Positions 48,482 through 63,866 of a DNA stretch of 64,000 nucleotides are shown in pieces. Positions within the stretch are counted from its first letter, which is position 1. Every line of letters starts with the position of its first letter. The notes below the pieces were generated by a model. The model worked only from the letters and a program-made list of their open reading frames with translations. It was not told where the DNA came from and searched no databases. The position numbers were made by a program, and so were the translations under genes. The stretch lies in assembly GCF_030013205.1 (NCBI RefSeq), contig NZ_CP122648.1; one strand, written 5' to 3'. The DNA comes from Escherichia coli. GTDB taxonomy: Bacteria; Pseudomonadota; Gammaproteobacteria; Enterobacterales; Enterobacteriaceae.

Positions 48482-48610
48482 ACCATTCACGGCGCAAATA
48501 TACGCCTTTTTTTGTGATCACTCCGGCTTTTTTTGATCTTTATGCTTGTATGGTAGTAGCTCAGTTGCGTAGATTTCATGCATCACGACAAGCGATGCAA
48601 GGAATCGAAC

Positions 48611-49825
48611 ATGAAGATCGTAAAGGCTGAAGTTTTTGTTACCTGTCCGGGGCGTAATTTCGTCACATTAAAAATCACCACTGAGGACGGTATTACGGGC
48701 CTTGGGGATGCCACCCTCAATGGACGTGAGCTTTCCGTGGCCTCTTATTTGCAGGATCACCTTTGTCCGCAGCTTATTGGTCGCGATGCGCACCGTATCG
48801 AAGATATCTGGCAGTTTTTCTATAAAGGTGCTTACTGGCGTCGCGGTCCGGTTACGATGTCGGCCATTTCAGCGGTTGATATGGCGCTGTGGGATATTAA
48901 AGCCAAAGCTGCCAACATGCCGCTTTACCAGTTACTCGGCGGCGCGTCTCGTGAAGGGGTGATGGTTTATTGCCATACCACCGGTCACAGTATTGATGAA
49001 GCTCTGGATGATTATGCTCGTCATCAGGAGCTGGGATTCAAAGCCATCCGCGTGCAGTGCGGAATCCCTGGTATGAAAACCACCTACGGCATGTCGAAAG
49101 GTAAAGGTCTGGCTTATGAACCCGCAACCAAAGGACAGTGGCCGGAAGAGCAGCTGTGGTCGACGGAGAAATACCTCGATTTCATGCCGAAATTGTTTGA
49201 CGCGGTACGTAACAAGTTTGGTTTTAATGAACATTTGCTGCATGACATGCACCATCGCTTAACGCCTATTGAAGCGGCGCGCTTTGGTAAAAGCATTGAA
49301 GATTATCGCATGTTCTGGATGGAAGACCCGACGCCTGCGGAAAACCAGGAATGCTTCCGTCTCATTCGCCAACATACCGTCACACCCATCGCGGTGGGTG
49401 AAGTCTTCAACAGCATCTGGGACTGCAAGCAACTGATTGAAGAGCAACTTATCGATTATATCCGCACCACGCTGACCCATGCAGGCGGAATTACCGGTAT
49501 GCGCCGGATTGCCGATTTTGCTTCGTTGTATCAGGTACGTACTGGCTCACACGGTCCTTCCGATTTGTCACCAGTCTGCATGGCTGCGGCGCTGCACTTT
49601 GATCTGTGGGTCCCCAATTTCGGTGTCCAGGAGTACATGGGTTATTCCGAACAAATGCTTGAAGTCTTCCCGCACAACTGGACTTTCGATAACGGCTATA
49701 TGCATCCGGGAGACAAACCGGGTCTTGGCATCGAATTCGATGAAAAGCTGGCGGCGAAATATCCCTATGAACCTGCTTATCTGCCAGTCGCACGTCTGGA
49801 AGATGGCACGCTGTGGAACTGGTAA
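48611..49825 (+). CDS. rspA: starvation-sensing protein RspA (enolase superfamily, mannonate dehydratase-like)
   Basis: ORF trimmed to ATG at 48611 ([17 protein letters not shown]...) giving 404 aa. Confidence 0.93.
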
Positions 49826-49836
49826 GGAGTAAGATA

Positions 49837-50856
49837 ATGAAAAGCATTTTAATTGAAAAACCGAATCAACTGGCAATTATCGAACGCGAAATACCCACCC
49901 CGTCAGCGGGTGAAGTACGAGTAAAAGTGAAACTTGCCGGAATTTGTGGTTCAGATAGCCATATTTATCGTGGGCATAATCCTTTTGCGAAATATCCGCG
50001 CGTCATTGGTCATGAATTCTTTGGCGTCATTGATGCAGTGGGTGAAGGCGTGGAAAGCGCCAGAGTCGGTGAACGCGTTGCTGTCGATCCGGTGGTCAGC
50101 TGTGGGCATTGCTATCCGTGCTCTATAGGTAAGCCGAACGTTTGTACGACACTGGCTGTATTAGGTGTGCACGCTGACGGTGGTTTCAGTGAATATGCCG
50201 TGGTGCCGGCAAAAAATGCGTGGAAAATTCCTGAAGCAGTGGCCGATCAATATGCGGTGATGATCGAACCTTTTACCATTGCGGCTAACGTAACCGGACA
50301 TGGTCAACCGACTGAAAATGATACCGTTCTGGTTTACGGTGCCGGTCCAATCGGCCTGACGATCGTTCAGGTATTAAAAGGCGTCTATAACGTTAAAAAT
50401 GTGATTGTTGCCGATCGCATTGATGAACGACTGGAAAAAGCGAAAGAGAGCGGGGCAGACTGGGCGATTAATAACAGCCAGACACCGCTTGGCGAGATTT
50501 TCGCTGAAAAAGGCATCAAGCCGACATTAATTATCGATGCGGCTTGTCATCCTTCTATCCTGAAAGAGGCTGTAACGCTGGCTTCTCCGGCGGCACGTAT
50601 TGTATTGATGGGGTTCTCCAGTGAACCGTCTGAAGTGATTCAGCAAGGAATTACCGGAAAAGAACTCTCTATTTTTTCTTCACGCTTAAATGCAAATAAA
50701 TTCCCGGTCGTTATCGACTGGTTAAGTAAAGGGTTAATTAAACCAGAAAAATTAATTACCCATATGTTTGATTTCCAGCATGTTGCTGATGCCATTAGTT
50801 TATTTGAACAGGATCAAAAACATTGCTGCAAAGTCTTACTCACTTTTTCTGAATAA
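49837..50856 (+). CDS. rspB: zinc-dependent alcohol dehydrogenase-family protein RspB
   Basis: ORF trimmed to ATG at 49837 with GGAG upstream, giving 339 aa; GHEFFG / GxGxxG motifs. Confidence 0.93.
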   Translation: MKSILIEKPNQLAIIEREIPTPSAGEVRVKVKLAGICGSDSHIYRGHNPFAKYPRVIGHEFFGVIDAVGEGVESARVGERVAVDPVVSCGHCYPCSIGKPNVCTTLAVLGVHADGGFSEYAVVPAKNAWKIPEAVADQYAVMIEPFTIAANVTGHGQPTENDTVLVYGAGPIGLTIVQVLKGVYNVKNVIVADRIDERLEKAKESGADWAINNSQTPLGEIFAEKGIKPTLIIDAACHPSILKEAVTLASPAARIVLMGFSSEPSEVIQQGITGKELSIFSSRLNANKFPVVIDWLSKGLIKPEKLITHMFDFQHVADAISLFEQDQKHCCKVLLTFSE

Positions 50857-50913
50857 TACCAATAACGGCGAGTAAGTAGTACGCATCTTACCTCTTTTTT
50901 AGAGATAACCATT

Positions 50914-51024
50914 ATGACAATAGAAAAACACGAAAGAAGCACTAAGGATTTGGTGAAAGCAGCAGTATCGGGATGGCTGGGCACTGCGCTTGAATTTATG
51001 GATTTCAAGAGTCATGCGTGTTAA
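50914..51024 (+). pseudogene. ydfJ: 36-codon 5' remnant of an MFS transporter gene (ydfJ-like) cut off at the prophage junction
   Basis: Hand translation MTIEKHERSTKDLVKAAVSGWLGTALEFMDFKSHAC*; resembles an MFS N-terminus and stops just before the integrase gene. Confidence 0.5.
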
Positions 51025-51043
51025 CTATTTGATAAATATTAAA

Positions 51044-52339
51044 TTAATTTTTCATTGCTTCGTTATGGGGCATGGTTGGGGCAAACTCGCTTAACTGTGT
51101 ATTTAACAAAGCTACCTGTGCATTATTGTTTTCAGACATCCATTTTCCGTATACCTGAAATACCATTTGCGCATCTGCATGGCCCATCTGGTTTGCTATA
51201 AATGCCGGGTTAGCACCAGCTGTCAGCGACCAGCAGGCATAAGTATGTCTCGACTGATATGATTTTCGATGGCGGAGTCCGGCACGTTTTATCGCTGCGT
51301 CCCACATCTGCCTTATTGAGTCAACGGTAAAATGGTCACCATAATTTTTTACTCTCGCTGACACTTCAGGTTGAAAAACAAAGGTGCATTTTTGTTTTTC
51401 TGTTCTGCCATACTCTCTGAGGTGAACATCAATGATATGCTCTTTGCTCAGTCTCGTTAATGTCATCTGACTCCGGAGAGCGTCGATTGCTGGCTTAATA
51501 AGATGAATGACCCGATTGGTTCCCGCCTGTGTTTTTGGTACCGTGAAACGGTCTTTTGCTAAATTTCTCCTGATCATCATTGTTCCATTTTTCAGATCTA
51601 TGTCCTCCCATCCAAGTGCACACAGCTCACCAGGGCGAACTCCAGTATAAACAGAAACACACCATAAATTTTTTGCTTGCTGATTTCTGCACGCATCGAT
51701 AAGACGGATAAATTCTTCCCGCGAAAGAGGATCCGGAATGGTTCTTGATTCCTTTAATGGCGAGATCCCCTTAAACGGATTATCTGCCAGGTAACCGTTA
51801 TCAACACCAAACTGGAACACGGCGTTAAGATTTGTCATGTAATTATTTACAGTTACAGCCGATCTCCCTGGTTGTGTAACAATATAGTTACTTTTGGGGA
51901 TCTGGTATCCAGTCAGTAACTCTTTACGAACCTCCAGTAATTTTTCTTTATTAATCGATGAGGCAAGATTTTTTTCACCGATTATGCTCAGGATATTTTT
52001 GATGACGGCACGGTATGTGTTGAGTGATGTTTTGGCGACTTCAGTTTCTTTCAGTGCCAGAAATTTTTCAGCCAGTTCTTTTATGGTTAAATCTTGTCGG
52101 GCCTCACCAAATTTTTCCAGATTGCGTGAGGAGGGAAACTGTTTTGCATAGTCGAAAACACCAGTTTTTATTGCGTAACAAACAGAGGAGCGTAGTTCAC
52201 CTGCAACGCGCCTGTTTTTTGCTGTGTCAGGAACCCCCAGATTTTCCCTGACTCTTACGTCTTTATAAACAAACCAGATACGTAATTTCCCTCCATGGTT
52301 TTCCACGCCTGTCGGATATTTCATTTCAACTTCTCTCAT
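51044..52339 (-). CDS. phage tyrosine integrase
   Basis: 431-aa ORF with C-terminal R..H..R..Y catalytic-type residues (HTYACW...ANQMGHADAQMVFQVYGKW); start could be the Met 5 codons in (52324). Confidence 0.85.
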   Translation of the reverse strand: MREVEMKYPTGVENHGGKLRIWFVYKDVRVRENLGVPDTAKNRRVAGELRSSVCYAIKTGVFDYAKQFPSSRNLEKFGEARQDLTIKELAEKFLALKETEVAKTSLNTYRAVIKNILSIIGEKNLASSINKEKLLEVRKELLTGYQIPKSNYIVTQPGRSAVTVNNYMTNLNAVFQFGVDNGYLADNPFKGISPLKESRTIPDPLSREEFIRLIDACRNQQAKNLWCVSVYTGVRPGELCALGWEDIDLKNGTMMIRRNLAKDRFTVPKTQAGTNRVIHLIKPAIDALRSQMTLTRLSKEHIIDVHLREYGRTEKQKCTFVFQPEVSARVKNYGDHFTVDSIRQMWDAAIKRAGLRHRKSYQSRHTYACWSLTAGANPAFIANQMGHADAQMVFQVYGKWMSENNNAQVALLNTQLSEFAPTMPHNEAMKN

Positions 52340-52358
52340 TAGTTAGTGTGGCTTTTAG

Positions 52359-52610
52359 TCAAGTAAGATGACGTCTTGGTCTCGCTGATGCCTGGCGCTC
52401 AATCCAGCGATCAATTTCTTCCAGGTTGTAAAAGCATGGACTGTTATCCCATGGCATACCGTCATGAGCGACATGCTTATATTCCCTTCCTTCCATAAAC
52501 GATTTTTCCCGGGCCTTTTTTAACGTACCTTTTTTTATTCCTTTCAGCGCAATTAACTGCTCTTCGGATACCCATTTGCCGGGAGAGACAATCATGATTA
52601 CTTCGCTCAT
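52359..52610 (-). CDS. putative excisionase (Xis)
   Basis: 83-aa basic ORF immediately upstream of int in the same orientation; typical xis position. Confidence 0.6.
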   Translation of the reverse strand: MSEVIMIVSPGKWVSEEQLIALKGIKKGTLKKAREKSFMEGREYKHVAHDGMPWDNSPCFYNLEEIDRWIERQASARPRRHLT

Positions 52611-52682
52611 CGATTTCTTTATCTCTTACATCAGACGAGCGCCGGTTGCAGAATACCAGTCACAACCGGCGACAGTTGAACA

Positions 52683-55154
52683 TTAAGAATCAGCCTGACT
52701 CGGGATCAGTTTTTGCCAGATAACTGAAACGTATTTTGCCTGGTAACGGGCGTCATCAAGTGCATTATGGCGCTCACCTTCGAATGGAATAGCCGTTCTG
52801 GCATCGAAGTCTATGGCTTTCCCCAGCTCAACGATTGTGCGTACATCGCGATCGTTGTAGTAACGCCACGGGCAGGGGATCCCCTGCCGTTCGTATGAAC
52901 GGCGCAAAATCGTGTTGTCGAAGTTGGCTCCATTTCCCCAAACCTGAACAAAAAATTCACCGGAGTTTTCGTCGATAAATTCTCGCAATTGTAACAGTGC
53001 ATCATCTAACGGGATTTCATCGGTCATAATGGCAGATTGCGCTTCGCGTGATTGCTTAAGCCACCATTTAATGGTGTCCCGATCAATGACTCCGCCAGCA
53101 GTTTCCAGATCGATAGTCTTACTAAATTCCGGTCCCATATCTCCGGTTTGCGGATCGAAAAATATTGCACCTATTGAGATGATCGGGGCATCAGGATTTT
53201 TTCCCATGGTTTCAAGGTCGATCATTAGATGGTCACACGTCCTGCTGGTGGATGTGATTTCGTGATGACCGTTCACCTTAATTGGGTGATCTGCCGTCTC
53301 GCCAGTTTCATTATCGCTATTGTGATGCTGATTGCCGCCAGTGTTCTCCTTGTGTGGATGTTCAGCGCCTTCCATTTCCTCCGGATCATCTTCCTGAACT
53401 TCAACCTGATACTCTTCATCGAATGTTTCTTGGTATGTTGCGTCGCCCATCACCGCGCCACAATCAGGGCAGTTGCCGCCGCCGGTCTGACCGCAGGCGG
53501 TGCAGACTTTTTCCACTTCCTGTTGCGCTACTGGTTCAGGCTGTTTCGTTTCTGGCTCGTTTTGTAACGCATTTGGACTGTTTTGTTCCGCTTTTTGGTA
53601 GTTCCGTTCCGATTCATGCTGGTTCTGGTTCACAGAATCGCGGGTCTGGAGCCCCTTAACCCATTTCGGATCATTCGGGTCACTAATCCCTTCAACAAAT
53701 TCACCACGTGATGCAGCAAGCAACTTATCGGCGTCAGGCTGGCTGATATTGGCTGCCTGCATAATTTTGTTTACTTCGTCAGCGGTAACTTTTATCGGCT
53801 CTGGTTGTTCTGAATCTTCAGCGGTATCTACATTTTGCGGTAAGCCCGTGTATGTGCCATTTTTTCGGGCAAAATATTCTTCTTTTGTGATTTCAGTGGC
53901 GCCAGCAGCCAGTGCCTTATCCAGACCAGAGAGTTTGTTTGCGCGACCGTATTTTTCTCCGTCCTTATCTGCGAAGAGGAAATAGAACGGCCCCTCACGC
54001 TCTACAGATGGTTCAGCTTCCGGCGCGGTTTCATTTTTTGGGATATCAGATACCTCAGTTTCCACTGCATCAGTTTGTGTTTCTGATGACTGGAGAACAT
54101 CAACAGTGCCCAGGTCTGTTTCTTCATTCTCAAACACGCCCTTTGTCGTCAGGTATTCGCAGATATATTTGTTCAGTGCTACGGGATCTTTGTGAATGTC
54201 GATCGGACGCTCACGGACAAGGCCAAAAATAGTTTGGCGGTCGTAGCGAAGGGCATCAGGCTGTTTGCGCATTGATGCCGAGATACGCTTCCAGTCTTCG
54301 CGGTCGTTGTCGATAACTTCTTTTTTTGCCCAGCGATGGATGCTGCCGTCAATGTTTCCGGCATCCACATCACTAGGCCAGAGAGCGTAGGCCAGTTCGT
54401 CATCCAGTGTTTTCCATGTCTGCTTGTATTCGCGATGAATGGCAGCAATGACCGGGCTGATTTTTCCTGTTGAATTTTCAGTGTACTGTTGATTGGCTCT
54501 GGCGCGGGCGAGATCAACAACAGACGTGTATTTTCCGGTTTCCTTGCGTTCACCTTCGCGACGTTTTTTCCAGATGCGCATCTCTGCCTGAATTTCGGGC
54601 CATTTAGCACCAGGAATACATTTATGCTTAACCCACCCAATGGCGTGCAACTTAAGCTCCGGATACATGGCGTTAACTTCTGGCATTTTCATCAACGCTT
54701 CAACGATATGTCCGTCGAATGTTGCCATGTCTTCCTGCAACAATTCCTGTGCGCTAATAACCATATCAACGGTGATGTTTTCACATGTGTCGAACTTAAC
54801 CATGACAGCGTTCTGTACTTCAGGGGCCAGCTTGTCAAAAGTGACGTTCATCGGATCGGATTCAGTCTCAACCGGGACAAAAGAAGCAGACTCCTCATCC
54901 CAGCGGTTTTCCTGCATATATTCAGCATCCCATGAATCGAGGGCAGGGCGGGGTATGCCAGGTTTATCCTCGCAGACAATAAATTTATAAGCGCAGTCCT
55001 GAGCAGCCGGATAATGTTCCAGGAATTGCCAGTGAAATTTTGCTCGAGCACGGCGTTCGTCGCCAGCTTCAATGGCTGTGGCTACAGCCACAGCGCCTTC
55101 TTCCCTTGTTGCCAGTTCGTCAGGAATAGCGGCGCAAATAAAGACTTTACTCAT
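52683..55154 (-). CDS. prophage exonuclease, C-terminal DEDDh (DnaQ-like) 3'-5' exonuclease domain
   Basis: ORF track start at 55190 is TTG; ATG at 55152-55154 has GAGG upstream and gives about 823 aa; motifs IDLETMG, WGNGANFD, HNALDDARYQAKY; central CTACGQTGGGNCPDCG. Confidence 0.75.
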   Translation of the reverse strand: MSKVFICAAIPDELATREEGAVAVATAIEAGDERRARAKFHWQFLEHYPAAQDCAYKFIVCEDKPGIPRPALDSWDAEYMQENRWDEESASFVPVETESDPMNVTFDKLAPEVQNAVMVKFDTCENITVDMVISAQELLQEDMATFDGHIVEALMKMPEVNAMYPELKLHAIGWVKHKCIPGAKWPEIQAEMRIWKKRREGERKETGKYTSVVDLARARANQQYTENSTGKISPVIAAIHREYKQTWKTLDDELAYALWPSDVDAGNIDGSIHRWAKKEVIDNDREDWKRISASMRKQPDALRYDRQTIFGLVRERPIDIHKDPVALNKYICEYLTTKGVFENEETDLGTVDVLQSSETQTDAVETEVSDIPKNETAPEAEPSVEREGPFYFLFADKDGEKYGRANKLSGLDKALAAGATEITKEEYFARKNGTYTGLPQNVDTAEDSEQPEPIKVTADEVNKIMQAANISQPDADKLLAASRGEFVEGISDPNDPKWVKGLQTRDSVNQNQHESERNYQKAEQNSPNALQNEPETKQPEPVAQQEVEKVCTACGQTGGGNCPDCGAVMGDATYQETFDEEYQVEVQEDDPEEMEGAEHPHKENTGGNQHHNSDNETGETADHPIKVNGHHEITSTSRTCDHLMIDLETMGKNPDAPIISIGAIFFDPQTGDMGPEFSKTIDLETAGGVIDRDTIKWWLKQSREAQSAIMTDEIPLDDALLQLREFIDENSGEFFVQVWGNGANFDNTILRRSYERQGIPCPWRYYNDRDVRTIVELGKAIDFDARTAIPFEGERHNALDDARYQAKYVSVIWQKLIPSQADS

Positions 55155-55246
55155 TTGTTTTAACCTCATGACAGATTTAAGGATGAACAAATCCCTGCCA
55201 TTGCTGGCATATAAGAATGAAACCGGATATTTATTACGGAACTGTT

Positions 55247-55438
55247 TTAAAGACCTGCCGGGATTTCGATATTATCCTGGTGAATAACTTTATCGACCGG
55301 GTAACAGTTACCGGGAATTTTCTGTTCGGTTGCTGCAGTCATACACTCCTGCATTGTCCAGTGAACACTGACTGCAATATCAACTGGCTCTCCGGAAACA
55401 AGAAAAACTGTCAGAACAAGCACAAATGCTGAATTCAT
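55247..55438 (-). CDS. ydfD: Qin prophage small protein YdfD
   Basis: ORF trimmed to MNSAFVLVLTVFLVSG... (63 aa); ATG overlaps the dicB stop (ATGA). Confidence 0.8.
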   Translation of the reverse strand: MNSAFVLVLTVFLVSGEPVDIAVSVHWTMQECMTAATEQKIPGNCYPVDKVIHQDNIEIPAGL

Positions 55439-55623
55439 TGTGCACATCCTTTTGGCATCAGACGTAAACGAGCCAGCATTGAAACAATGCATATTTTATT
55501 TAATAGCTCCCGTTCTTGTTTTCTCTTGTTAATGGCATCTTCAGTAAATACTGGGTTACTGATAGTGACACCAATTTCAAAACAACCTTCAGACGTATTA
55601 ACGTTTGGTAATAACGTTTTCAT
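55435..55623 (-). CDS. dicB: cell division inhibitor DicB
   Basis: ORF trimmed to 62 aa MKTLLPNVNTSEGCFEIGVTISNPVF...; recognised as DicB. Confidence 0.9.
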   Translation of the reverse strand: MKTLLPNVNTSEGCFEIGVTISNPVFTEDAINKRKQERELLNKICIVSMLARLRLMPKGCAQ

Positions 55624-55797
55624 TATCGCGTCCTCAACAATGAATTTTGTGATGCAGTGCCTGGTGCCTCCAGGTGACGTTAACCAGTTAACAATTAACG
55701 CCGGATACAGAGAATCCACCCATAACACTGTTTTTGGTTTTAACTGTTCCGCGTGCGCTCAGCCGCATTCACCACATCACAAAATTCACTTTAAAAA

Positions 55798-55850
55798 GGG
55801 CAGCAGAGCAGTCACGGAGTAAAACTGATACCGCCAAACGTCACCAGAAA
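55798..55850 (-). ncRNA. dicF: DicF small regulatory RNA
   Basis: Minus strand reads UUUCUGGUGACGUUUGGCGGUAUCAGUUUUACUCCGUGACUGCUCUGCUGCCC followed by UUUUU; matches remembered DicF; sits between ydfC and dicB. Confidence 0.85.
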
Positions 55851-56190
55851 ATTGATAACAGAGGGCGTTGCAGCGGGGTTGTCACTTAAGCGTATGGTCA
55901 ACCTGACAACCCGGTGTCCTCAACGGGGAAGGAATAACCCCGCCATACTTACCGCCGCGCCATTTCGCGGGTTGCCACAACCGGAAGCGCACGGTCGACG
56001 AAAATTTAACGACAGGCTATCTATGAACCAGCTACCTCGCCGTGCGCTTTCGCGTTATGGTCTGACTTTTCAGGGAAATATCCTTTCAGTAAACTGTCAG
56101 TTCCGGATGCGCACCCGTGTCCGGCGCACGCACTCCACCTCACCCGTGGAGAACTCCTTAATTACTAACCTTAGCTTTGTTGATTAGCTA

Positions 56191-56409
56191 CTAACGCGGG
56201 TATGTAATCATTCTGGCAATGCTTAATGCCGCTGCTTTTTCCAGATTGGTGATATCCTGCTCCAGAGCGGACAGATTTTCAGCCTGCTTAGCCCTGGCTT
56301 CATTAGCCCATTTCAGATCCTGCGCTGCATTAATTTTCTGGCGCATCCACTCATAAAGTTCATCATCGGTATAGTCTGGCGCGATGATGACGGGTTCTCG
56401 TTTCTGCAT
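56191..56409 (-). CDS. ydfC: Qin prophage protein YdfC
   Basis: 72-aa ORF in the dicB operon upstream of dicF. Confidence 0.8.
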   Translation of the reverse strand: MQKREPVIIAPDYTDDELYEWMRQKINAAQDLKWANEARAKQAENLSALEQDITNLEKAAALSIARMITYPR

Positions 56410-56438
56410 ACTGATTCCTCGCGGTGCTGTTTCGCTTA

Positions 56439-56567
56439 TCAGCCGTTAGATTTTGCCGAACTGGAAAGCGCCTGTTTAAACTCACTGAAGCTGAGAGCTT
56501 CTTCGCCTTCGGCAAGGCCTTCGAAGTATTCTTCGTAAGCCTTTTCCATGATTGTGTCGAAATCCAT
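56439..56567 (-). CDS. ydfB: Qin prophage small protein YdfB (42 aa)
   Basis: Hand-translated MDFDTIMEKAYEEYFEGLAEGEEALSFSEFKQALSSSAKSNG*; below the ORF-track cutoff. Confidence 0.75.
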   Translation of the reverse strand: MDFDTIMEKAYEEYFEGLAEGEEALSFSEFKQALSSSAKSNG

Positions 56568-56568
56568 A

Positions 56569-56724
56569 TCACTCACCTGAGTTTCTTTCCAGCCAGCGAC
56601 GGGCACCATTTTCGGTTTTAAACGTTTTGCTTTTGGTATACGTCATTGCGGTGAACGTGCCGTCCTGGTTTGGAAACACGCCGTACACCAGAGATTCGTT
56701 GTTGCCAAGATCGATAGTATCCAT
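56569..56724 (-). CDS. ydfA: Qin prophage small protein YdfA (51 aa)
   Basis: ORF trimmed to MDTIDLGNNESLVYGVFPNQDGTF...; first gene after dicA. Confidence 0.75.
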   Translation of the reverse strand: MDTIDLGNNESLVYGVFPNQDGTFTAMTYTKSKTFKTENGARRWLERNSGE

Positions 56725-56890
56725 GCTGACCTCATTTCCCCTTAACGCTGGGGTAGCGGAACTGTTTGCTGAGAACACCGTGCGGTGTGTTGATGCAAAC
56801 AAGATTAGCCATGACTAACATATCGGTCAAGTGATTTTGTATGCTATAGCTAACATAATTGATGTGGTAAAAGATAACTCATTGATGATG

Positions 56891-57298
56891 TTATCTTTTA
56901 TTTGTCCGCTGACGGGCTTTTAGTAATTCTTCAAAGAGTTTATTGAAGTTTTTTACTCGAGCTCGCATTTCGGCGAGCTGGGTATCCTGTTCTGATTCTG
57001 GCAGTGCATTAAACAGCTCAAGGAGCTCTAGTTCTTTGGGGGATAAGGCAACTGGCTTCTCAACAGGTGGTGTTGGTTGCTTGTCTTCATCGCCAAATAG
57101 AATCCATGTTGGTGAGCATTGCAATACTTTGCTGAGGGCAAAAAGGTTCTTCCCTGTAGGTTCACTATCACCCCGTTCCCATTGTGATACAGACACATGG
57201 GAGATTTTCAGGGCTTTAGCAAGAGAGCTTTGGGTGTGTTTGAGGTTTTTCCGACGATACCTGATGCGTTCGCCGATAGTTAAATTTTTTGTTTCCAT
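56891..57298 (-). CDS. dicA: XRE-family HTH repressor DicA (cI-like)
   Basis: 135-aa ORF with N-terminal HTH; divergent from dicC. Confidence 0.92.
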   Translation of the reverse strand: METKNLTIGERIRYRRKNLKHTQSSLAKALKISHVSVSQWERGDSEPTGKNLFALSKVLQCSPTWILFGDEDKQPTPPVEKPVALSPKELELLELFNALPESEQDTQLAEMRARVKNFNKLFEELLKARQRTNKR

Positions 57299-57381
57299 AG
57301 TTAGCTAATGCTAAATCGTATTGACTATGTTTTTGTTAACATCTATCTTGTTAGTTATGACTAACAATAAAGGTGTTTTAA
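57299..57381. promoter_or_regulatory. dicA-dicC divergent promoter/operator region
   Basis: 83-bp AT-rich spacer containing dyads TTAGCTAA and TTAGT-TATG-ACTAA between divergent repressor genes. Confidence 0.55.
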
Positions 57382-57612
57382 ATGCTTAAAACTGACGCTC
57401 TTTTGTATTTCGGTTCAAAAACAAAACTTGCACAAGCAGCAGGTATTCGTTTGGCTTCGCTTTATAGCTGGAAAGGGGATTTAGTTCCCGAAGGTCGCGC
57501 GATGCGTCTACAGGAGGCATCTGGCGGGGAGCTTCAGTATGATCCCAAAGTTTATGATGAATATCGTAAGACGAAGCGGGCGGGGCGGTTGAACAATGAA
57601 AATCACTCCTGA
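57382..57612 (+). CDS. dicC: Cro-like regulator DicC
   Basis: 76-aa ORF divergent from dicA; recognised as DicC. Confidence 0.9.
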   Translation: MLKTDALLYFGSKTKLAQAAGIRLASLYSWKGDLVPEGRAMRLQEASGGELQYDPKVYDEYRKTKRAGRLNNENHS

Positions 57613-57919
57613 ACAGGCTCGTGAGGCTCTGGATGCCTGGATATGTCGACCAGGAATGACACAGGAGCAGGCGACGATATTAATCACTGAAGCATTCTGG
57701 GCTTTGAAAGAGCGCCCGAACATCGATGTTCAGCGTGTCACATATGAAGGTGGCGCGATTGATCAGCGAGCGCTTGGCGTTATCTGGTCATCACCTGACG
57801 GAGAAATACGTCGCTACGACAGTCGCCTAAACATAATCTGTCGCGAGTGCCGGAAGAGCGAAGTTATGCAGCGCATACTGGCTTTCTATCAGGGTAATTT
57901 TCAGGACGTGGCGCAGTGA
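57596..57919 (+). CDS. hypothetical prophage protein (YdfX-like position), Cys-containing
   Basis: 107-aa ORF overlapping the dicC 3' end by 17 nt; CxxC at CRECRK; family not assigned. Confidence 0.5.
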   Translation: MKITPEQAREALDAWICRPGMTQEQATILITEAFWALKERPNIDVQRVTYEGGAIDQRALGVIWSSPDGEIRRYDSRLNIICRECRKSEVMQRILAFYQGNFQDVAQ

Positions 57920-58272
57920 GTGCACCGGCAACCATTCTTGATATGTGCTGTGGCAGCCGCATGTTCTGGTTCGATAAGTCTGACGAACGGGCGATATTCA
58001 GCGATATCAGAAAAGAAGGATACACATTACGCAATGGGAGACGCTTGATTATCAGCCCTGACATTATCGCAGATTTTCGTGCATTATCATTTGCAGACGC
58101 ATCTTTTTCGATGGTTGTATTAGACCCTCCGCATCTTGAGAGTGTTGGTGATAACGCCTGGATGGGAAAGAAATATGGACGGCTGAATAAAGATGCCTGG
58201 CGTGATGATTCGCGACAGAGATTTAAAGAAGCCTTTCGGGGGTTGAGGCCGCACGGCGTTCTGATTTTTTAA
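57916..58272 (+). pseudogene. short SAM-methyltransferase-like ORF, probably truncated
   Basis: 118-codon ORF starting at GTG overlapping the upstream stop; motif-I-like ILDMCCGS and DPPH (DPPY-like); ends at a T6 run. Confidence 0.4.
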
Positions 58273-58631
58273 TGGAATGAAACGCAAATACCGGTAAGCC
58301 AGATTCTGGCACTGACAGACAGAAAACCTGTTATCTGTCAACGAACAGGGAAAAAACGATAAAACCCACTGGATTATTTTTATGAAAGAGGCATCCAGTG
58401 AGTAGATTCGTAAGGCTACAGATACGTATATCTGAATAATTAAATTCAGTTCTGTAAATAAAATTTAATCCTTAACCGGATGGATTTCTGCACCCTCAGA
58501 ACATCAGGAGGCCGCCCGAAAGGGCGGTAGTGAAATGCGAATGTTCAAAATTATTATTGAAACGGGAATAGCTGGTGGAGATTTTGAGGATGTATTCGAA
58601 GTGGACGATGACGCAACACCTGAGGAAATTC

Positions 58632-58886
58632 ATGACGGAGCATAAGAAATTTTCTTTAACTACTGCAATTACTCATACCACGAAATAAAAGACGATGAGG
58701 AAGAACAAAGTGGCTGATTTTTGTTCAGCTAAATATAACATCAGTTTTGAAGAGCGGGATGAACTATTAATGGACTATGGTGAGTTACGCGGTGGAAGTG
58801 CTGCTGATGTCGAATCCTAGCGTGATGACTATGAAGCGGGAAAAACTCCGGTCGAAGCATATTGTGATGAGTGGGGCGATGAATGA
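58632..58886 (+). pseudogene. reading frame interrupted by in-frame TAA and TAG, otherwise open
   Basis: Hand translation MTEHKKFSLTTAITHTTK*KTMRKNKVADFCSAKYNISFEERDELLMDYGELRGGSAADVES*RDDYEAGKTPVEAYCDEWGDE*. Confidence 0.3.
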
Positions 58887-59170
58887 GCGAGATTAATTAT
58901 CAGGAAGGGCATGAAACGGCGGGGCAAGCAAAACCAGTGGCATGGCGATATCGCTACGTGAAAAAAGGCGTTACGGACTTTCAGGGGAAGTAGTGGTCTG
59001 GTGACTGGAAATATGTACCGAAAAAAGAGGATTGTAACGACAGGCCGAACTATCAAATTCAGGCCTTATTCACTGCCTCACCAGTCCCAGTTACATCAGA
59101 AGAACTGGTTAAAGCTGTGCACTTTTATGAACAACTAAAACGCGAAAATCCACCAACATCCGGCAACTAG
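58883..59170 (+). pseudogene. reading frame interrupted by one in-frame TAG, start overlaps previous stop (ATGA)
   Basis: Hand translation MSEINYQEGHETAGQAKPVAWRYRYVKKGVTDFQGK*WSGDWKYVPKKEDCNDRPNYQIQALFTASPVPVTSEELVKAVHFYEQLKRENPPTSGN*. Confidence 0.3.
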
Positions 59171-59424
59171 ATTAATGGATTAACTATGTCGGTTAAACGA
59201 CCAGCCAACTGAAAAAGCGGAAACCTGATTACAGGTTGCCAGATAAGGCAATGAGCTACCTGGCGCGGAACGGACTGATAAGTATGGGGAATGTTTTACG
59301 ATGAACCTTTAGACTAAAGAGTTTGTAACGCTATGTAAGTGATTTTTTCTGGTTTAGATATTTATATGTCCGGCCAAATTGAGGTGTGTTTAAATGTAAT
59401 TGCACATTGATTGTAGGAGGAATA

Positions 59425-59604
59425 ATGAAAAACGCATTGCAGTTTTTGTTTGTTGCGTTCTGGTTGTTCGCATCATGTATGCCCATCATCTTCACAGCAA
59501 GGTATATGGAAAAAGTTGATGTTTTGATATTAATATTTGGATATATAAATGCCCTTTTTTTAGGGGTGTTCATGGCGGTCATGTGCATTGAATACTGGCG
59601 GTAA
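59425..59604 (+). CDS. 59-aa hydrophobic (two predicted TM) small protein
   Basis: MKNALQFLFVAFWLFASCMPIIFTARYMEKVDVLILIFGYINALFLGVFMAVMCIEYWR; GGAGG about 6 nt upstream of the ATG. Confidence 0.45.
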   Translation: MKNALQFLFVAFWLFASCMPIIFTARYMEKVDVLILIFGYINALFLGVFMAVMCIEYWR

Positions 59605-59938
59605 ATACAGCGAACTCCATTGGTTTAGTTGGATATTTACTGTGCTGGACAAAAACGGTTTGCGGGGAAATCTTAGTTAAGTAGAATGACTGCGGGTGCT
59701 TGAGGCTATCTGCCTCGGGCATGGACACCAACGGCAGATAGAGAAAAGCCCCAGTTAACATTACGCGTCCTGCAAGACGCTTAACATTAATCTGAGGCCA
59801 ATTTCATGCTAGACACATGTAGGTTAGCCTCTTACGTGCCGAAAGGCACGGAGAAGCAGGCTATTGTTAACACCAAGTTGTAATGTCCCCTTTGAACCAT
59901 TCTAAAATGTCCCCAGACAATTCTCTGGGGGATTTTTC

Positions 59939-61252
59939 ATGATCAAAGAGACTGTTACGATGAGTCATAAGGAACTCCACCGACTTCAGATTATTCAGGA
60001 ACAAGCTGCGGCACGCATTGGCATTTCTATTCGGCAGGTTAAACGTCTGGTGCAACGGTATAGAAATGAAGGGCCTTCTGGTCTGGTTTCCCACCGACGT
60101 GGAAAGCGTCCTAATAATTCCTTTTCTACTGAATTCAGAGCAACAGTAATTTCACTCCTCAAAGGCCGTTACGCTGATTTTGGACCTACGTTTGCGTGCG
60201 AAAAATTGCGCGAGATACACGGTTTATCTTTATCCGTTGAAACTCTCAGAAAGTGGATGATAGAAGAGGGGTTATGGCGTGAACGCCGTCGTAAAATTGC
60301 CCGTATATATCAACGCCGCATGCGACGACCATCTTACGGTGAACTGATCCAGATTGATGGCTCACCTCATGACTGGTTTGAAAATCGAGGCCCCAGATGT
60401 ACACTGATCGTTTTCATTGATGATGCCACCAGTGCGTTGATGGCGTTGCGTTTTGTGCCTGCTGAAACAACCCGGGCTTACATGGAAACCCTCCGGGGTT
60501 ACCTTAATGATCATGGCGTACCGCTCGCTCTCTACTCTGATAGACACAGTATATTCAGGGTAAATAACCCAGAGCGGGAAGGTGAGCTGACCCAGTTCAC
60601 TCGTGCGATAAAGACACTGGGCATCGAGCCAATCCATGCCAACAGCCCGCAGGCAAAAGGGCGGGTAGAGCGCGCCAATCAGACACTACAGGACAGGCTG
60701 GTCAAAGAAATGCGGCTTCAGAATATCAGTGATATTGAAACAGCAAATGCATGGTTGCCGACCTTTATTGAAGCCTATAACAACCGGTTCGCTACGTCGC
60801 CTCGTACTACTGATAATGCTCATCTTGATGTGCACCATTCTGAAGAGGAACTGGGTTATATCTTCAGCCTACAGGCGAAGCGCGTTCTGTCTAAAAATCT
60901 CACTTTCCAGTACAAAAGCAGTGCGTTTCAGGTACGCAGTGAGGGCCGGGGATATCGACTTAGGCATTCGGTTGTTACTGTATGCGAGAACTTTGACGGT
61001 GAAATTAACGTTCTGTATGACGGGAAAGCGCTGGGCTGGGAAAAGTATGTTGATGGCCCGGAGCCTATACCACTGGATGATGAAAAGAGTGTCCATGAAC
61101 GAGTGGATAATGCCCGTATTGATTTACGCTCAAAATACTATGTTAAACCTAAAGCTGACCATCCCTGGCTTACGCGCCGAACGCAAAGTCATCAGCAAGT
61201 TAAGCCCCCGAAGTTACCTAAAAAGAAGCCTGATCCCGATAAAAAAGATTGA
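59939..61252 (+). CDS. DDE transposase with N-terminal HTH and rve-type integrase core (IS481/ISNCY-like), Lys-rich tail
   Basis: 437-aa ORF; HTH at IGISIRQVKRLVQRY; acidic residues in DGSPHDW / FIDDATS / RVERANQ context; family assigned from memory only. Confidence 0.65.
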   Translation: MIKETVTMSHKELHRLQIIQEQAAARIGISIRQVKRLVQRYRNEGPSGLVSHRRGKRPNNSFSTEFRATVISLLKGRYADFGPTFACEKLREIHGLSLSVETLRKWMIEEGLWRERRRKIARIYQRRMRRPSYGELIQIDGSPHDWFENRGPRCTLIVFIDDATSALMALRFVPAETTRAYMETLRGYLNDHGVPLALYSDRHSIFRVNNPEREGELTQFTRAIKTLGIEPIHANSPQAKGRVERANQTLQDRLVKEMRLQNISDIETANAWLPTFIEAYNNRFATSPRTTDNAHLDVHHSEEELGYIFSLQAKRVLSKNLTFQYKSSAFQVRSEGRGYRLRHSVVTVCENFDGEINVLYDGKALGWEKYVDGPEPIPLDDEKSVHERVDNARIDLRSKYYVKPKADHPWLTRRTQSHQQVKPPKLPKKKPDPDKKD

Positions 61253-61586
61253 AACCAAGATCGATTCGGTTGAGTGCATATCCATTCATAGGGTAGATTC
61301 TTAAGTCGCGTTTCTGGTGTTCATTTTCGGGTGGTTTGTTACTTGTTTTACCGGGGATATGCCAGAAACGCGCTGAGTCAGTCTGGGCGGTGCGCGTAAT
61401 GAGGCGTTATGGTAAATAGCCTATGCTAATGTCCGCTAAGAGCAAGAAGCGGAAGTTGGCAGTTTTGTGGACTGTCCCCACAAAAGTGACTACAGAAATA
61501 GTTGCAATTCATAATTGATCATGGGTTGTCAGTTAAACTCGTGGCGATTTAAATAGACTAATTGGGAGTGCGTCCATTACTTATAT

Positions 61587-61635
61587 CTTGTAATGTTAAC
61601 TATCAGAAATTCTTGTAATGTTAACTATCAGAAAT
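61587..61635. repeat. Two tandem copies of a 24-bp unit CTTGTAATGTTAACTATCAGAAAT separated by 1 nt
   Basis: Read directly: 61587-61610 and 61612-61635 are identical; located 3' of flxA. Confidence 0.9.
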
Positions 61636-61713
61636 GATACAAAGATAATATGTCTTTAAAGAAAAGGCTGATGGCGAAAAGTGGCCCGATGAGGGCCACA
61701 ATACGGCTGTCAC

Positions 61714-62046
61714 TTAGACGTAAATATCAATGGTGCCAGCGGTATTTGTATCGTCTTTTTTCTCTTCTTTTTTATCAGGCTGAACTGTCGCGTCTTCATT
61801 CTTTTTCTCTGCCTGCTGCCTTAACAACTGCTCCAGTTGAGCCCAGAGGCTTTCAATTTGCTTCTGTACCAATGCAGCCATTTCTTTTTTCTGCTGTGTC
61901 GTCATCCCCTCTTCCGATGAGATTTTCCCAAGCTTTTCAGTCAGCACCTGAATTTGTCTTGTGATTTTGGCTATTTCTGATGTTCCTTCCGGGGCGGAGT
62001 TGTTTGAAATAACGGTTGAGGTATTTCCCTGAATTGTGACAGACAT
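61714..62046 (-). CDS. flxA: FlxA (FliA-regulated Qin prophage protein)
   Basis: 110-aa ORF MSVTIQGNTSTVISNN... recognised as FlxA; AGGAG upstream. Confidence 0.88.
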   Translation of the reverse strand: MSVTIQGNTSTVISNNSAPEGTSEIAKITRQIQVLTEKLGKISSEEGMTTQQKKEMAALVQKQIESLWAQLEQLLRQQAEKKNEDATVQPDKKEEKKDDTNTAGTIDIYV

Positions 62047-62069
62047 AGATTTCTCCTTTTAAAAAAGCA

Positions 62070-62096
62070 CTATCGGCATGCACAAAAAAATCTTTA
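62070..62096 (-). promoter_or_regulatory. sigma-28 (FliA) type promoter for flxA
   Basis: Minus strand TAAAGATT-N11-GCCGATAG versus consensus TAAAGTTT-N11-GCCGATAA, about 25-50 nt upstream of the flxA ATG. Confidence 0.75.
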
Positions 62097-62248
62097 ATCG
62101 TATTTCTTGTGTCATTAATTGTTTGATGTTCAGATTGTTTTCCTCGCGGGCTGGCGCGCCTCAGAAAGTAAAGCTTGTTGACAGGGGTAAACGTTCGGCA
62201 ATAATTTTCTGCCGCATGCGGGTGTTGCATAAAACGTGTTACGTTCCT

Positions 62249-62554
62249 TTATCGACAGGTCAGGTCACCGCTCACCCGCCGACGAGAAAGCAACACTGAC
62301 ATGCTAAAGCAAAAAATAGATGAATAAGTTGAGTTGTGCATATGTAGCCTGACCGTCACAAAGTATATGGTGTCTGTACCAGTAAGATGATGGCCGGACT
62401 CTTTAAAAACGAGCTGACCTGCACAATACAGGATGGACTTAGCAATGGCTGCTCCTGGCACAAAGCGGACAGTGATCACCGTTCTTACGACTACTTTCTG
62501 ACTTCCTTCGTGACTTGCCCTAAGCATGTTGTAGTGCGATACTTGTAATGACAT
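62249..62554 (-). CDS. ydfV: Qin prophage protein YdfV
   Basis: 101-aa ORF between flxA and relB; identity by position and length, low compositional confidence. Confidence 0.5.
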   Translation of the reverse strand: MSLQVSHYNMLRASHEGSQKVVVRTVITVRFVPGAAIAKSILYCAGQLVFKESGHHLTGTDTIYFVTVRLHMHNSTYSSIFCFSMSVLLSRRRVSGDLTCR

Positions 62555-62566
62555 TTGTAATTACAA
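62543..62566. promoter_or_regulatory. relBE operator (relO) dyad
   Basis: TTGTAATGACATTTGTAATTACAA, containing the 12-bp palindrome TTGTAATTACAA, 13 nt upstream of the relB ATG. Confidence 0.7.
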
Positions 62567-62578
62567 GAGGTGTAAGAC

Positions 62579-62818
62579 ATGGGTAGCATTAACCTGCGTA
62601 TTGACGATGAACTTAAAGCGCGTTCTTACGCCGCGCTTGAAAAAATGGGTGTAACTCCTTCTGAAGCGCTTCGTCTCATGCTCGAGTATATCGCTGACAA
62701 TGAACGCTTGCCGTTCAAACAGACACTCCTGAGTGATGAAGATGCTGAACTTGTGGAGATAGTGAAAGAACGGCTTCGTAATCCTAAGCCAGTACGTGTG
62801 ACGCTGGATGAACTCTGA
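62579..62818 (+). CDS. relB: antitoxin RelB
   Basis: 79-aa ORF recognised as RelB. Confidence 0.95.
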   Translation: MGSINLRIDDELKARSYAALEKMGVTPSEALRLMLEYIADNERLPFKQTLLSDEDAELVEIVKERLRNPKPVRVTLDEL

Positions 62819-63105
62819 TGGCGTATTTTCTGGATTTTGACGAGCGGGCACTAAAGGAATGGCGAAAGCTGGGCTCGACGGTACGTGAACAGTTGAAAAA
62901 GAAGCTGGTTGAAGTACTTGAGTCACCCCGGATTGAAGCAAACAAGCTCCGTGGTATGCCTGATTGTTACAAGATTAAGCTCCGGTCTTCAGGCTATCGC
63001 CTTGTATACCAGGTTATAGACGAGAAAGTTGTCGTTTTCGTGATTTCTGTTGGGAAAAGAGAACGCTCGGAAGTATATAGCGAGGCGGTCAAACGCATTC
63101 TCTGA
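62818..63105 (+). CDS. relE: mRNA interferase toxin RelE
   Basis: 95-aa ORF overlapping the relB stop by 1 nt (TGATG); recognised as RelE. Confidence 0.95.
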   Translation: MAYFLDFDERALKEWRKLGSTVREQLKKKLVEVLESPRIEANKLRGMPDCYKIKLRSSGYRLVYQVIDEKVVVFVISVGKRERSEVYSEAVKRIL

Positions 63106-63176
63106 ACCAAAGCATGACATCTCTGTTTCGCACCGAAGGTGACACTTCTGCTTTGCGTTGACAGGAGAAGCAGGCT

Positions 63177-63332
63177 ATGAAGCAGCAAAAGGCGATGTTA
63201 ATCGCCCTGATCGTCATCTGTTTAACCGTCATAGTGACGGCACTGGTAACGAGGAAAGACCTCTGCGAGGTACGAATCCGAACCGGCCAGACGGAGGTCG
63301 CTGTCTTCACAGCTTACGAACCTGAGGAGTAA
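63177..63332 (+). CDS. hokD: Hok-family membrane toxin HokD (RelF)
   Basis: Hand-translated 51-aa ORF MKQQKAMLIALIVICLTVIVTALVTRKDLCEVRIRTGQTEVAVFTAYEPEE with AGGAG upstream; below ORF-track cutoff. Confidence 0.85.
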   Translation: MKQQKAMLIALIVICLTVIVTALVTRKDLCEVRIRTGQTEVAVFTAYEPEE

Positions 63333-63401
63333 GAGACCCGGCGGGGGAGAAATCCCTCGCCACCTCTGATGTGGCAGGCATCCTCAACGCACCCGCACTT
63401 A

Positions 63402-63800: not shown

Positions 63801-63866
63801 ACTCATCTACAATCTTGCGCGGGGCTGAACTCCCGCTGAGTAACACCGTGCCACCGGAGAAAACCG

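What the first reader, a model, noticed from the sequence alone, without database searches (positions are those of the whole stretch)
50857..51043. Prophage junction lies inside a truncated MFS-transporter gene
Between the rspB stop and the integrase gene there is a 36-codon ORF (MTIEKHERSTKDLVKAAVSGWLGTALEFMDFKSHAC*) that looks like the N-terminus of a sugar/shikimate-type MFS transporter and then stops. This fits integration of the prophage into ydfJ, with attL somewhere near 51.00-51.04 kb.
Basis: inference. Interest (0 to 1): 0.35.

Follow-up and report, generated by a model that had tools for sequence, protein, structure and literature searches.

The report
Qin-type prophage junction inside ydfJ
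The 36-codon ORF is the first 31 codons of the E. coli transporter gene ydfJ joined to five phage codons, made when a Qin/mEp460-type lambdoid prophage integrated into ydfJ; this junction is well documented and is present in about half of complete E. coli genomes.

Summary

- **The ORF.** It lies at 50914-51024 (+), between the rspB stop (50856) and the integrase stop (51044). Bases 1-93 (31 codons) are identical to intact ydfJ, a 455-aa MHS-family MFS transporter, in strains without the prophage. The last five codons and the stop are phage DNA.
- **The att sites.** attL in the window equals attB-left plus attP-right. attR, in the 99.986%-identical genome K_EC180 and in K-12, equals attP-left plus attB-right. 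The inferred attP is contiguous in four free phage genomes (PhiR42_1, mEp460_ev081, HannyBb, Tritos).
- **The crossover.** It lies within the 11-nt exact identity TTATGGATTTC (50996-51006). The imperfect 19-nt att spans 50991-51009.
- **The other end.** attR and the 3' part of ydfJ lie about 27.5 kb away, outside the window.
- **A twist.** The ORF is exactly K-12 YnfP (b4534), a small protein detected by epitope tagging. YnfP is this integration-made fragment, so the match does not refute the reading. Its tail changes with the phage variant.
- **Difference from K-12.** Int and Xis are intact here and 100% identical to those of phage PhiR42_1.
- **Frequency.** This attL occurs in 2722 of 5426 complete genomes, and intact attB in 2013.

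The parts
49837..50856 (+). rspB (Zn-dependent oxidoreductase), the host gene upstream of the junction
   Evidence: ORF. Annotated as rspB in K_EC180, K-12 and HS30-1 at the homologous position.
50857..50913 (+). native rspB-ydfJ intergenic spacer (57 nt), host DNA
   Evidence: Identical layout in HS30-1, which has intact ydfJ. The simple scan finds no promoter-like or terminator-like site. Co-transcription with rspAB is therefore plausible, but this is inference.
50914..51006 (+). 5' remnant of ydfJ: codons 1-31, 100% identical to intact ydfJ
   Evidence: Alignment to HS30-1 ydfJ. The TIGR00883 match to intact YdfJ starts at residue 23, so the cut falls near the start of the conserved transporter core.
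50914..51024 (+). chimeric ORF identical to K-12 ynfP (b4534): 31 ydfJ codons plus 5 phage codons (KSHAC) plus stop
   Evidence: [quoted passage not shown] The tail varies with the phage arm variant.
50991..51009 (.). attL common sequence, 19 nt, imperfect: TGAATTTATGGATTTCAAG
   Evidence: Four-way comparison of attB, attP, attL and attR. Consistent with the '18- or 19-bp att sequence' reported for ydfJ prophages in PMC8112680. The 14-nt pattern TTATGGATTTCMAG, searched with one mismatch allowed, matches only once in the window.
50996..51006 (.). 11-nt exact attB/attP identity, TTATGGATTTC, within which strand exchange must have occurred
   Evidence: attL keeps the bacterial TTT run on the left and the phage A (51007) on the right. 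attR keeps the phage TT run and the bacterial C. The K-12 annotation puts the Qin boundary at the position equivalent to 51007.
51010..51250 (.). phage-derived arm of attL (P'-arm equivalent), overlapping the 3' end of int
   Evidence: 98.4-100% identical to the attP region of four free phage genomes.
51066..51083 (+). two candidate arm-type Int-binding sites (TGGGGCA at 51066-51072 and 51077-51083, 11 nt apart); inference only
   Evidence: TGGGRCA occurs four times in the 4.3-kb PhiR42_1 locus. All four are on one strand, in two pairs 11 nt apart, on either side of the core. Three of 200 shuffles reach four or more matches. No binding was tested.
51044..52339 (-). integrase (431 aa from the first ATG; annotated as 426 aa in K_EC180), intact
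   Evidence: Pfam Arm-DNA-bind_2 (3.8e-22) and Phage_integrase (4e-18). 100% identical to Int of phage PhiR42_1 and 423/427 to mEp460_ev081. The K-12 homologue intQ is a pseudogene with IS2E annotated across its 5' end.
52359..52610 (-). excisionase (83 aa)
   Evidence: Pfam DUF1233, putative excisionase, 1.6e-31. 100% identical to Xis of PhiR42_1 and mEp460_ev081.
52683..55190 (-). prophage exonuclease (835-aa ORF from the first TTG; annotated start is shorter)
   Evidence: Pfam Rv2179c-like 3'-5' exonuclease domain, 2.5e-67. Annotated as exonuclease in K_EC180.

Best explanation
This is the left junction (attL) of a Qin/mEp460-type lambdoid prophage that integrated by Int-mediated site-specific recombination into codons 28-31 of the host gene ydfJ, an MHS-family MFS transporter. 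The phage attP (…CTGTGAATT ATGGATTTC AAGAGTCATGC…) recombined with attB in ydfJ (…CTTGAATTT ATGGATTTC CAGTTATATTC…) within the 11-nt identity TTATGGATTTC. The left product keeps the native rspB-ydfJ spacer, the ydfJ start codon and 31 codons. It then reads into the phage arm for five codons (KSHAC) and stops. That gives the 36-codon ORF, which K-12 annotation calls ynfP. The right product lies about 27.5 kb away and outside the window. It is a 427-codon ydfJ remnant that starts at Met29, whose ATG lies inside the core, and has lost its promoter-side context and its first 28 residues. The four-way att relationship, the contiguous attP in free phages, and the identity of the window's Int and Xis to those of a phage genome are shown by the data. 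That Int performed the reaction, that the overlap region lies inside the 11 nt, that TGGGRCA repeats are arm sites, and that the ORF is transcribed with rspAB are inferences.
For: - **Coordinates.** The ORF and gene coordinates are as described.
- **Source genome.** Window 49402-64000 is 99.986% identical to K_EC180. There the prophage runs from the attL core to the attR core, L004 1597 to 29102, which is 27.5 kb. It is followed by 'ydfJ, missing N-terminus' and then ydfI.
- **Intact locus.** HS30-1 has rspA-rspB-ydfJ-ydfI with no insertion.
- **Point of divergence.** The window is identical to ydfJ over nt 1-93 and then diverges. attR is reciprocal.
- **Four-way att alignment.** attL and attR are exact reciprocal hybrids of attB and of the attP found in phage genomes.
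- **Contiguous attP.** The 501-nt composite attP is found whole, at 98.4-100% identity, in PhiR42_1, mEp460_ev081, HannyBb and Tritos, next to int-xis-exo. mEp460_ev081 is described as a functional temperate phage.
- **Integrase and excisionase.** Int has Arm-DNA-bind_2 and Phage_integrase domains, and Xis matches DUF1233. Both are 100% identical to those of PhiR42_1.
- **K-12 annotation.** The Qin boundary corresponds to window 51007, and ynfP lies at the same place.
- **Literature.** Qin integrates at the 5' end of ydfJ with loss of the promoter and 28 codons (PMC6379469). [quoted passage not shown]
- **Population.** An attL-spanning 80-mer is present in 2722 of 5426 genomes. An attB-spanning 80-mer is present in 2013 of 5426.
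Against: The reciprocal junction (attR) and the 3' part of ydfJ are not in the window. They were checked only in a genome that differs from the window by about 2 bases in 14.6 kb, and in K-12. The 36-aa peptide alone matches no Pfam or NCBIfam model, so its assignment rests on exact nucleotide identity to ydfJ rather than on a profile match. That the ORF is an annotated and detected small protein (YnfP) could be read as a separate gene, but the variable tail argues otherwise.
Confidence: 0.97

Rival explanations
1. The 36-codon ORF is an independent, bona fide small-protein gene (YnfP), and its resemblance to a transporter N-terminus is incidental or reflects ancient duplication.
For: The ORF is annotated as 'protein YnfP' (b4534) in MG1655. 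It was detected by chromosomal SPA tagging (PMC6001520 Table 1). A delta-ynfP strain showed a longer lag after long nitrogen starvation (bioRxiv 10.1101/2020.03.30.016519).
Against: The first 31 codons and the 57-nt upstream spacer are base-for-base those of full-length ydfJ in the 2013 genomes with an intact attB. The remaining codons are phage attP-arm DNA. The tail differs with the phage variant: KSHAC*, KSHSI* or KSHTCQLFDKY*. No family model exists for it. The nitrogen-starvation paper itself calls it 'possibly fragmented'.
Confidence: 0.02
2. ydfJ was truncated by some other rearrangement (a deletion, an IS-mediated event or illegitimate recombination), and the prophage merely lies next to the breakpoint.
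For: The prophage is degraded and carries IS-related genes further in (ISNCY-family ORF). K-12 Qin has IS2E annotated across the 5' end of intQ.
Against: attL and attR are exact reciprocal hybrids of attB and attP, with no loss or gain of bases. The attP is contiguous in four phage genomes directly downstream of int. The same junction is present in 2722 genomes. No IS end lies at the junction.
Confidence: 0.01
3. The reading is the same as the best explanation, with one addition. Because int, xis and both att arms are intact in this strain, the defective prophage may still excise precisely and restore ydfJ, acting as a reversible on/off interruption of the rspAB-ydfJ-ydfI cluster.
For: Int and Xis are 100% identical to those of phage PhiR42_1. 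The attL arm in the window and the attR arm in K_EC180 together reproduce the PhiR42_1 attP at 100% over 501 nt. Conservative recombination would regenerate the attB sequence.
Against: There is no evidence of excision or of its regulation. The prophage in the near-identical genome is otherwise decayed, with a truncated terminase and several pseudogenes. Int expression is unknown.
Confidence: 0.15

Closest known systems
Cryptic prophage Qin of E. coli K-12 MG1655 (1632277..1652745), its attL next to rspB, and ynfP (b4534)
   Same: The 187-nt interval is 100% identical to MG1655. The att core, the chimeric 36-aa ORF, the integrase 3' end, and the host flanks (rspA-rspB on one side, ydfJ'-ydfI on the other) are all the same.
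   Different: In K-12, intQ is a pseudogene with IS2E annotated across its 5' end, and ydfE is a pseudogene. Here int (431 aa), xis and the 835-aa exonuclease ORF are intact. The element in the near-identical genome is about 27.5 kb, against 20.5 kb in K-12.
Temperate lambdoid phages mEp460_ev081, PhiR42_1, HannyBb and Tritos (attP-int-xis module)
   Same: All four carry the contiguous attP at 98.4-100% identity over 501 nt. Int is 99-100% identical and Xis 100% identical in the two phages compared, PhiR42_1 and mEp460_ev081.
   Different: Those are complete 45-49 kb phage genomes. The window holds an integrated copy which, judging from K_EC180, is degraded.
PPydfJ prophages of STEC/EPEC (Nakamura et al. 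2021, PMC8112680)
   Same: The integration locus is the same (ydfJ), and the reported att of 18 or 19 bp fits TGAATT(T)ATGGATTTCMAG.
   Different: Those prophages often carry T3SS effector loci and form tandem clusters. None of that is seen in the 13 kb of prophage in the window. I could not read their S7 figure to compare base by base.
Lambda Int/attP paradigm (heterobivalent tyrosine integrase with arm-type and core-type sites)
   Same: There is an N-terminal arm-binding domain plus a tyrosine-recombinase catalytic domain, int lies directly next to attP with xis upstream, and a short core identity is shared with attB.
   Different: The arm-binding domain belongs to the Arm-DNA-bind_2 family (PF12167). 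The target lies inside a coding sequence rather than in an intergenic site like lambda's (own knowledge). The arm sites here are only candidates.

Membership tests
attL of a site-specifically integrated Qin/mEp460-type prophage at ydfJ | The left junction equals attB-left plus the common core plus attP-right, with no bases lost or gained | tested here: met
   the window is identical to HS30-1 attB up to the core and identical to PhiR42_1 attP from the core onward.
attL of a site-specifically integrated Qin/mEp460-type prophage at ydfJ | A reciprocal attR (attP-left plus core plus attB-right) lies at the other prophage end | tested here: met
   Met in K_EC180 (99.986% identical to the window over 14.6 kb) and in K-12. 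It is not in the window itself.
attL of a site-specifically integrated Qin/mEp460-type prophage at ydfJ | attP exists as one contiguous sequence in free phage genomes, next to int | tested here: met
   four phage records cover 100% of the query at 98.4-100% identity.
attL of a site-specifically integrated Qin/mEp460-type prophage at ydfJ | Int catalyses attP x attB recombination at this core | not testable with these tools
   This needs an integration or excision assay. PMC8112680 reports sequencing a PCR amplicon of the attP-flanking region from a ydfJ prophage of O26:H11 strain 11368.
MHS (metabolite:H+ symporter) family MFS transporter YdfJ | The full-length protein scores above the curated cut-off of TIGR00883 | tested here: met
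   Intact HS30-1 YdfJ scores 462.9 bits against a cut-off of 443.45. Pfam MFS_1 matches at 2.7e-37.
MHS (metabolite:H+ symporter) family MFS transporter YdfJ | The window ORF itself encodes a transporter domain | tested here: not met
   The 36-aa product matches no Pfam or NCBIfam model. It holds only residues 1-31 of 455, so it is a fragment and not a family member in the functional sense.
MHS (metabolite:H+ symporter) family MFS transporter YdfJ | The window ORF is colinear with and identical to the ydfJ 5' end, including the upstream spacer | tested here: met
   93 of 93 nt and 31 of 31 aa are identical, and the 57-nt spacer after rspB is the same.
Free-standing small protein gene (YnfP) | Same sequence as the annotated and detected K-12 YnfP | tested here: met
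   (PMC6001520 Table 1).
Free-standing small protein gene (YnfP) | It exists and is conserved independently of the prophage junction | tested here: not met
   The ORF end is phage DNA. The tail and length change with the phage arm variant, giving 36, 36 and 42 aa. Genomes without the prophage have full-length ydfJ at this place.
Heterobivalent (lambda-type) tyrosine integrase | An arm-binding N-terminal domain plus a tyrosine-recombinase catalytic domain | tested here: met
   PF12167 at 78.5 bits (cut-off 22) and PF00589 at 66.2 bits (cut-off 27.1). There are distant matches to solved tyrosine recombinases.
Heterobivalent (lambda-type) tyrosine integrase | Repeated arm-type sites on both attP arms | tested here: inconclusive
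   TGGGRCA occurs four times in two 11-nt-spaced pairs flanking the core, and 3 of 200 shuffles reach four matches. The motif was chosen after seeing the data, and there are no binding data.

The most novel reading that the evidence does not exclude
The integration-made chimeric peptide YnfP (half of the first transmembrane helix of YdfJ plus a phage-encoded tail) is not merely tolerated debris. It may have a physiological role, as hinted by its detectable synthesis and by the longer lag of a delta-ynfP strain after prolonged nitrogen starvation. In addition, in strains like this one with intact int/xis and att arms, the element may still excise and switch ydfJ back on.
Probability: 0.08. Interest if true: 0.4.

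Novelty: already known. Interest (0 to 1): 0.08.

Why it matters
The practical value is mainly for annotation.

- The 36-codon ORF should be read as a prophage-generated ydfJ fragment, identical to YnfP, and not as a new gene.
- The prophage boundary can be placed to within 11 bases (50996-51006).
- The insertion splits what looks like a four-gene cluster, rspA-rspB-ydfJ-ydfI, in about half of E. coli genomes. This matters for anyone studying those genes in K-12.
- It shows how integration into a coding sequence can create an expressed small 'protein' that annotation then propagates.
- None of this is new. Qin integration into ydfJ and the att sequence are published.

Tried and rejected
- **Profile searches of the 36-aa peptide** (Pfam, NCBIfam) found no family. 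The peptide is too short, so the assignment rests on exact DNA identity instead.
- **Looking for the far junction in the window.** ydfJ k-mers beyond nt 93 are absent. The core pattern, searched with one mismatch allowed, occurs only once. attR therefore had to be read in K_EC180 and K-12.
- **Promoter and terminator consensus scan of 50700-51200** found nothing. This gives no direct support for a private ydfJ/ynfP promoter or for a terminator after rspB. Co-transcription with rspAB is only inferred.
- **Sequence search of Int against solved structures** gave only distant tyrosine recombinases (the best hit is named only 'Int protein'; also XerA), with E-values around 1e-9. This was uninformative beyond confirming the superfamily.
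- **Repeat search for arm sites** gave several weak two-copy families. Only the TGGGRCA pairs looked organised, and they remain a conjecture.
- **YnfP as an independent gene, and a non-Int rearrangement,** were both considered and rejected for the reasons given under the rival explanations.
- **Expensive searches not run.** I did not run the large protein-database or metagenome searches, because the E. coli genome and phage collections answered the question.

Full report
**1. What is in the sequence**

The interval 50857-51043 is the gap between two genes. On the left is the stop codon of rspB; the ORF listed from an upstream GTG is 49813-50856 (+), and rspB as annotated is 49837-50856. On the right is the stop codon of a 431-aa ORF on the minus strand, 51044-52339. 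Inside the gap is the ORF 50914-51024 (+).

The minus-strand ORF is a tyrosine integrase with Pfam Arm-DNA-bind_2 (3.8e-22) and Phage_integrase (4e-18). Behind it lie an 83-aa excisionase (DUF1233, 1.6e-31) and an 835-aa ORF with an Rv2179c-like exonuclease domain.

**2. Where the window comes from**

The window is E. coli. Window 49402-64000 aligns end to end with strain K_EC180 (NZ_CP062203.1) at 99.986% identity. The 187-nt interval itself is 100% identical to K-12 MG1655. There it overlaps 'ynfP: protein YnfP' and the end of 'cryptic prophage Qin'.

**3. Is the ORF a piece of a transporter gene?**

Yes. In strain HS30-1 the same rspA-rspB genes are followed, after the same 57-nt spacer, by a full-length ydfJ of 1368 nt (455 aa), and then by ydfI. 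The window is identical to that gene for nt 1-93 (31 codons) and unrelated afterwards.

Intact YdfJ passes the curated cut-off of TIGR00883, metabolite/H+ symporter (462.9 against 443.45 bits). Its next-best model is the shikimate transporter, and it matches Pfam MFS_1 and Sugar_tr. The TIGR00883 match starts at residue 23, so the break after codon 31 lies near the start of the conserved core.

The sequence around the break, GTALEFMDFQLY, resembles the G-x-x-x-E-(W/F)-x-D-F motif that I recall from the first transmembrane helix of ProP, ShiA and KgtP. That point rests on my own knowledge and was not tested here. The 36-aa peptite alone matches no profile.

**4. Is it a prophage junction?**

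A four-way comparison settles this.

| Site | Source | Sequence |
|---|---|---|
| attB | HS30-1 | …GCGCTTGAATTT ATGGATTTC CAGTTATATTC… |
| attP | free phages PhiR42_1 and mEp460_ev081 | …CACCTGTGAATT ATGGATTTC AAGAGTCATGC… |
| attL | window and K-12 | attB-left + attP-right |
| attR | K_EC180 and K-12 | attP-left + attB-right |

No base is lost or gained in either hybrid.

I built the attP by joining 250 nt left of the attR core in K_EC180 to 251 nt from the attL core rightward in the window. That 501-nt composite is found as one uninterrupted stretch in four phage genomes:

- PhiR42_1, 100% identity
- mEp460_ev081, 99.4%
- HannyBb, 99.0%
- Tritos, 98.4%

In the two records I opened, PhiR42_1 and mEp460_ev081, it lies directly downstream of int-xis-exo. 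mEp460_ev081 is described in the literature as a functional temperate phage isolated from infant faeces.

**5. Position of the crossover**

attB and attP share TTATGGATTTC exactly (window 50996-51006). On the left, attB has a run of three T where attP has two. On the right, attB has C where attP has A (window 51007), followed by a shared AG.

attL carries the bacterial TTT and the phage A. attR carries the phage TT and the bacterial C. Both strand exchanges therefore fell inside the 11-nt identity.

Counted with the indel and the mismatch, the common sequence is TGAATT(T)ATGGATTTC(C/A)AG. That is 19 nt in attB and attL (window 50991-51009) and 18 nt in attP and attR. This fits the '18- or 19-bp att sequence' that Nakamura et al. 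defined for prophages at ydfJ (PMC8112680); I could not see their figure. The K-12 annotation of the Qin boundary, 1652745, maps to window 51007.

**6. The other half of the gene**

It is not in the window. ydfJ k-mers beyond nt 93 are absent. The 14-nt core pattern, searched with one mismatch allowed, matches only once.

In K_EC180 the attR core lies 27,505 bp from the attL core. It is followed by 'ydfJ, incomplete, missing N-terminus' (1284 nt) and then ydfI. In K-12 the same 427-codon remnant is annotated as starting at an ATG that overlaps the prophage end by 9 nt. That ATG is Met29 of the intact protein and lies inside the core.

**7. The YnfP twist**

The ORF is exactly b4534/YnfP of MG1655. 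VanOrsdel et al. list this sequence among the 'SPs detected in this study' by chromosomal SPA tagging (PMC6001520, Table 1). [quoted passage not shown] It reports ynfP among the upregulated genes and reports a longer lag for delta-ynfP.

Its tail is phage attP-arm DNA and changes with the phage variant:

- KSHAC* in the window, K-12 and K_EC180
- KSHSI* in O45:H2 strain FWSEC0003
- KSHTCQLFDKY* (42 aa in all) in strain WG5 and in a hypothetical mEp460 lysogen

That the fragment is translated is expected, because it keeps the native ydfJ start region. The simple scan finds no promoter-like or terminator-like site between rspB and the ORF. Transcription from the rspAB promoter is therefore plausible, but it is only inferred.

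**8. How common is it?**

| 80-mer query | Genomes with a match covering at least 80% | Share of 5426 |
|---|---|---|
| Spanning this attL | 2722 | 50% |
| Spanning intact attB | 2013 | 37% |

This agrees with the 48% prevalence of Qin reported for 638 strains (PMC6379469). [quoted passage not shown]

**9. What differs from K-12**

In MG1655, intQ is a pseudogene with IS2E annotated across its 5' end. Here Int and Xis are full length and 100% identical to those of phage PhiR42_1. Int matches mEp460_ev081 at 423 of 427 residues. The two att arms together reproduce the PhiR42_1 attP at 100%.

The recombination module therefore looks functional, and precise excision restoring ydfJ is conceivable. 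The rest of the element in K_EC180 is decayed, with a truncated terminase and several pseudogenes.

Two pairs of TGGGRCA, each pair 11 nt apart, flank the core about 130 nt to the left and about 70 nt to the right. The right-hand pair is in the window at 51066-51072 and 51077-51083, inside the 3' end of int. These are candidate arm-type sites for the Arm-DNA-bind_2 domain. The motif was picked after seeing the data, so this is only a conjecture.

**10. Verdict**

The boundary is now placed at 50996-51006. The feature is the well-known Qin/PPydfJ attL and is already described in the literature, so interest is low. The one useful caveat for annotators is that 'YnfP' is an integration artefact that happens to be expressed.

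Noticed in passing
window 51044-55190 (-): Int (431 aa), Xis (83 aa) and the 835-aa exonuclease ORF are all intact, and Int and Xis are 100% identical to those of phage PhiR42_1. In K-12 Qin the homologous intQ and ydfE are annotated as pseudogenes and IS2E overlaps both. The otherwise degraded prophage may still be able to excise.
   Followed up: partly
window 55798-55849 (-): DicF antisense sRNA (Rfam RF00039, 71.1 bits, full-length match) lies in the dicB-ydfD region of the prophage, as in K-12 Qin.
   Followed up: no
window 59694-59865 (+), with the ORF at 59939-61252 (+): There is a full-length match to the Rfam sok antitoxin/hok-mRNA leader model (RF01794, 104 bits), but the ORF list shows no recognisable intact hok ORF. 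It is followed about 70 nt later by a 437-aa ORF that K_EC180 annotates as a partial ISNCY-family transposase. This may be a hok/sok locus cut by an IS insertion.
   Followed up: partly
window 48578-50856 (+) together with loci L002 and L004: rspA-rspB-ydfJ-ydfI lie head to tail with short spacers in strains without the prophage (dehydratase-family enzyme, Zn-dependent oxidoreductase, MHS transporter, mannitol-dehydrogenase-family enzyme). rspR, annotated as a repressor, lies nearby. The prophage therefore splits what looks like one catabolic cluster and leaves ydfJ'-ydfI without the upstream promoter context.
   Followed up: no
L006 880-897 and 1087-1104 (window 51066-51083 for the second pair): Four same-strand copies of TGGGRCA, in two pairs with 11-nt spacing, flank the attP core. 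They are candidate arm-type Int-binding sites, and the right-hand pair lies within the last codons of int.
   Followed up: partly
L008 (strain WG5) 1-1359: In strain WG5 rspA is annotated as missing its N-terminus and directly abuts a truncated DMSO/selenate-family reductase A-subunit gene. This suggests a deletion on the host side of the same locus.
   Followed up: no
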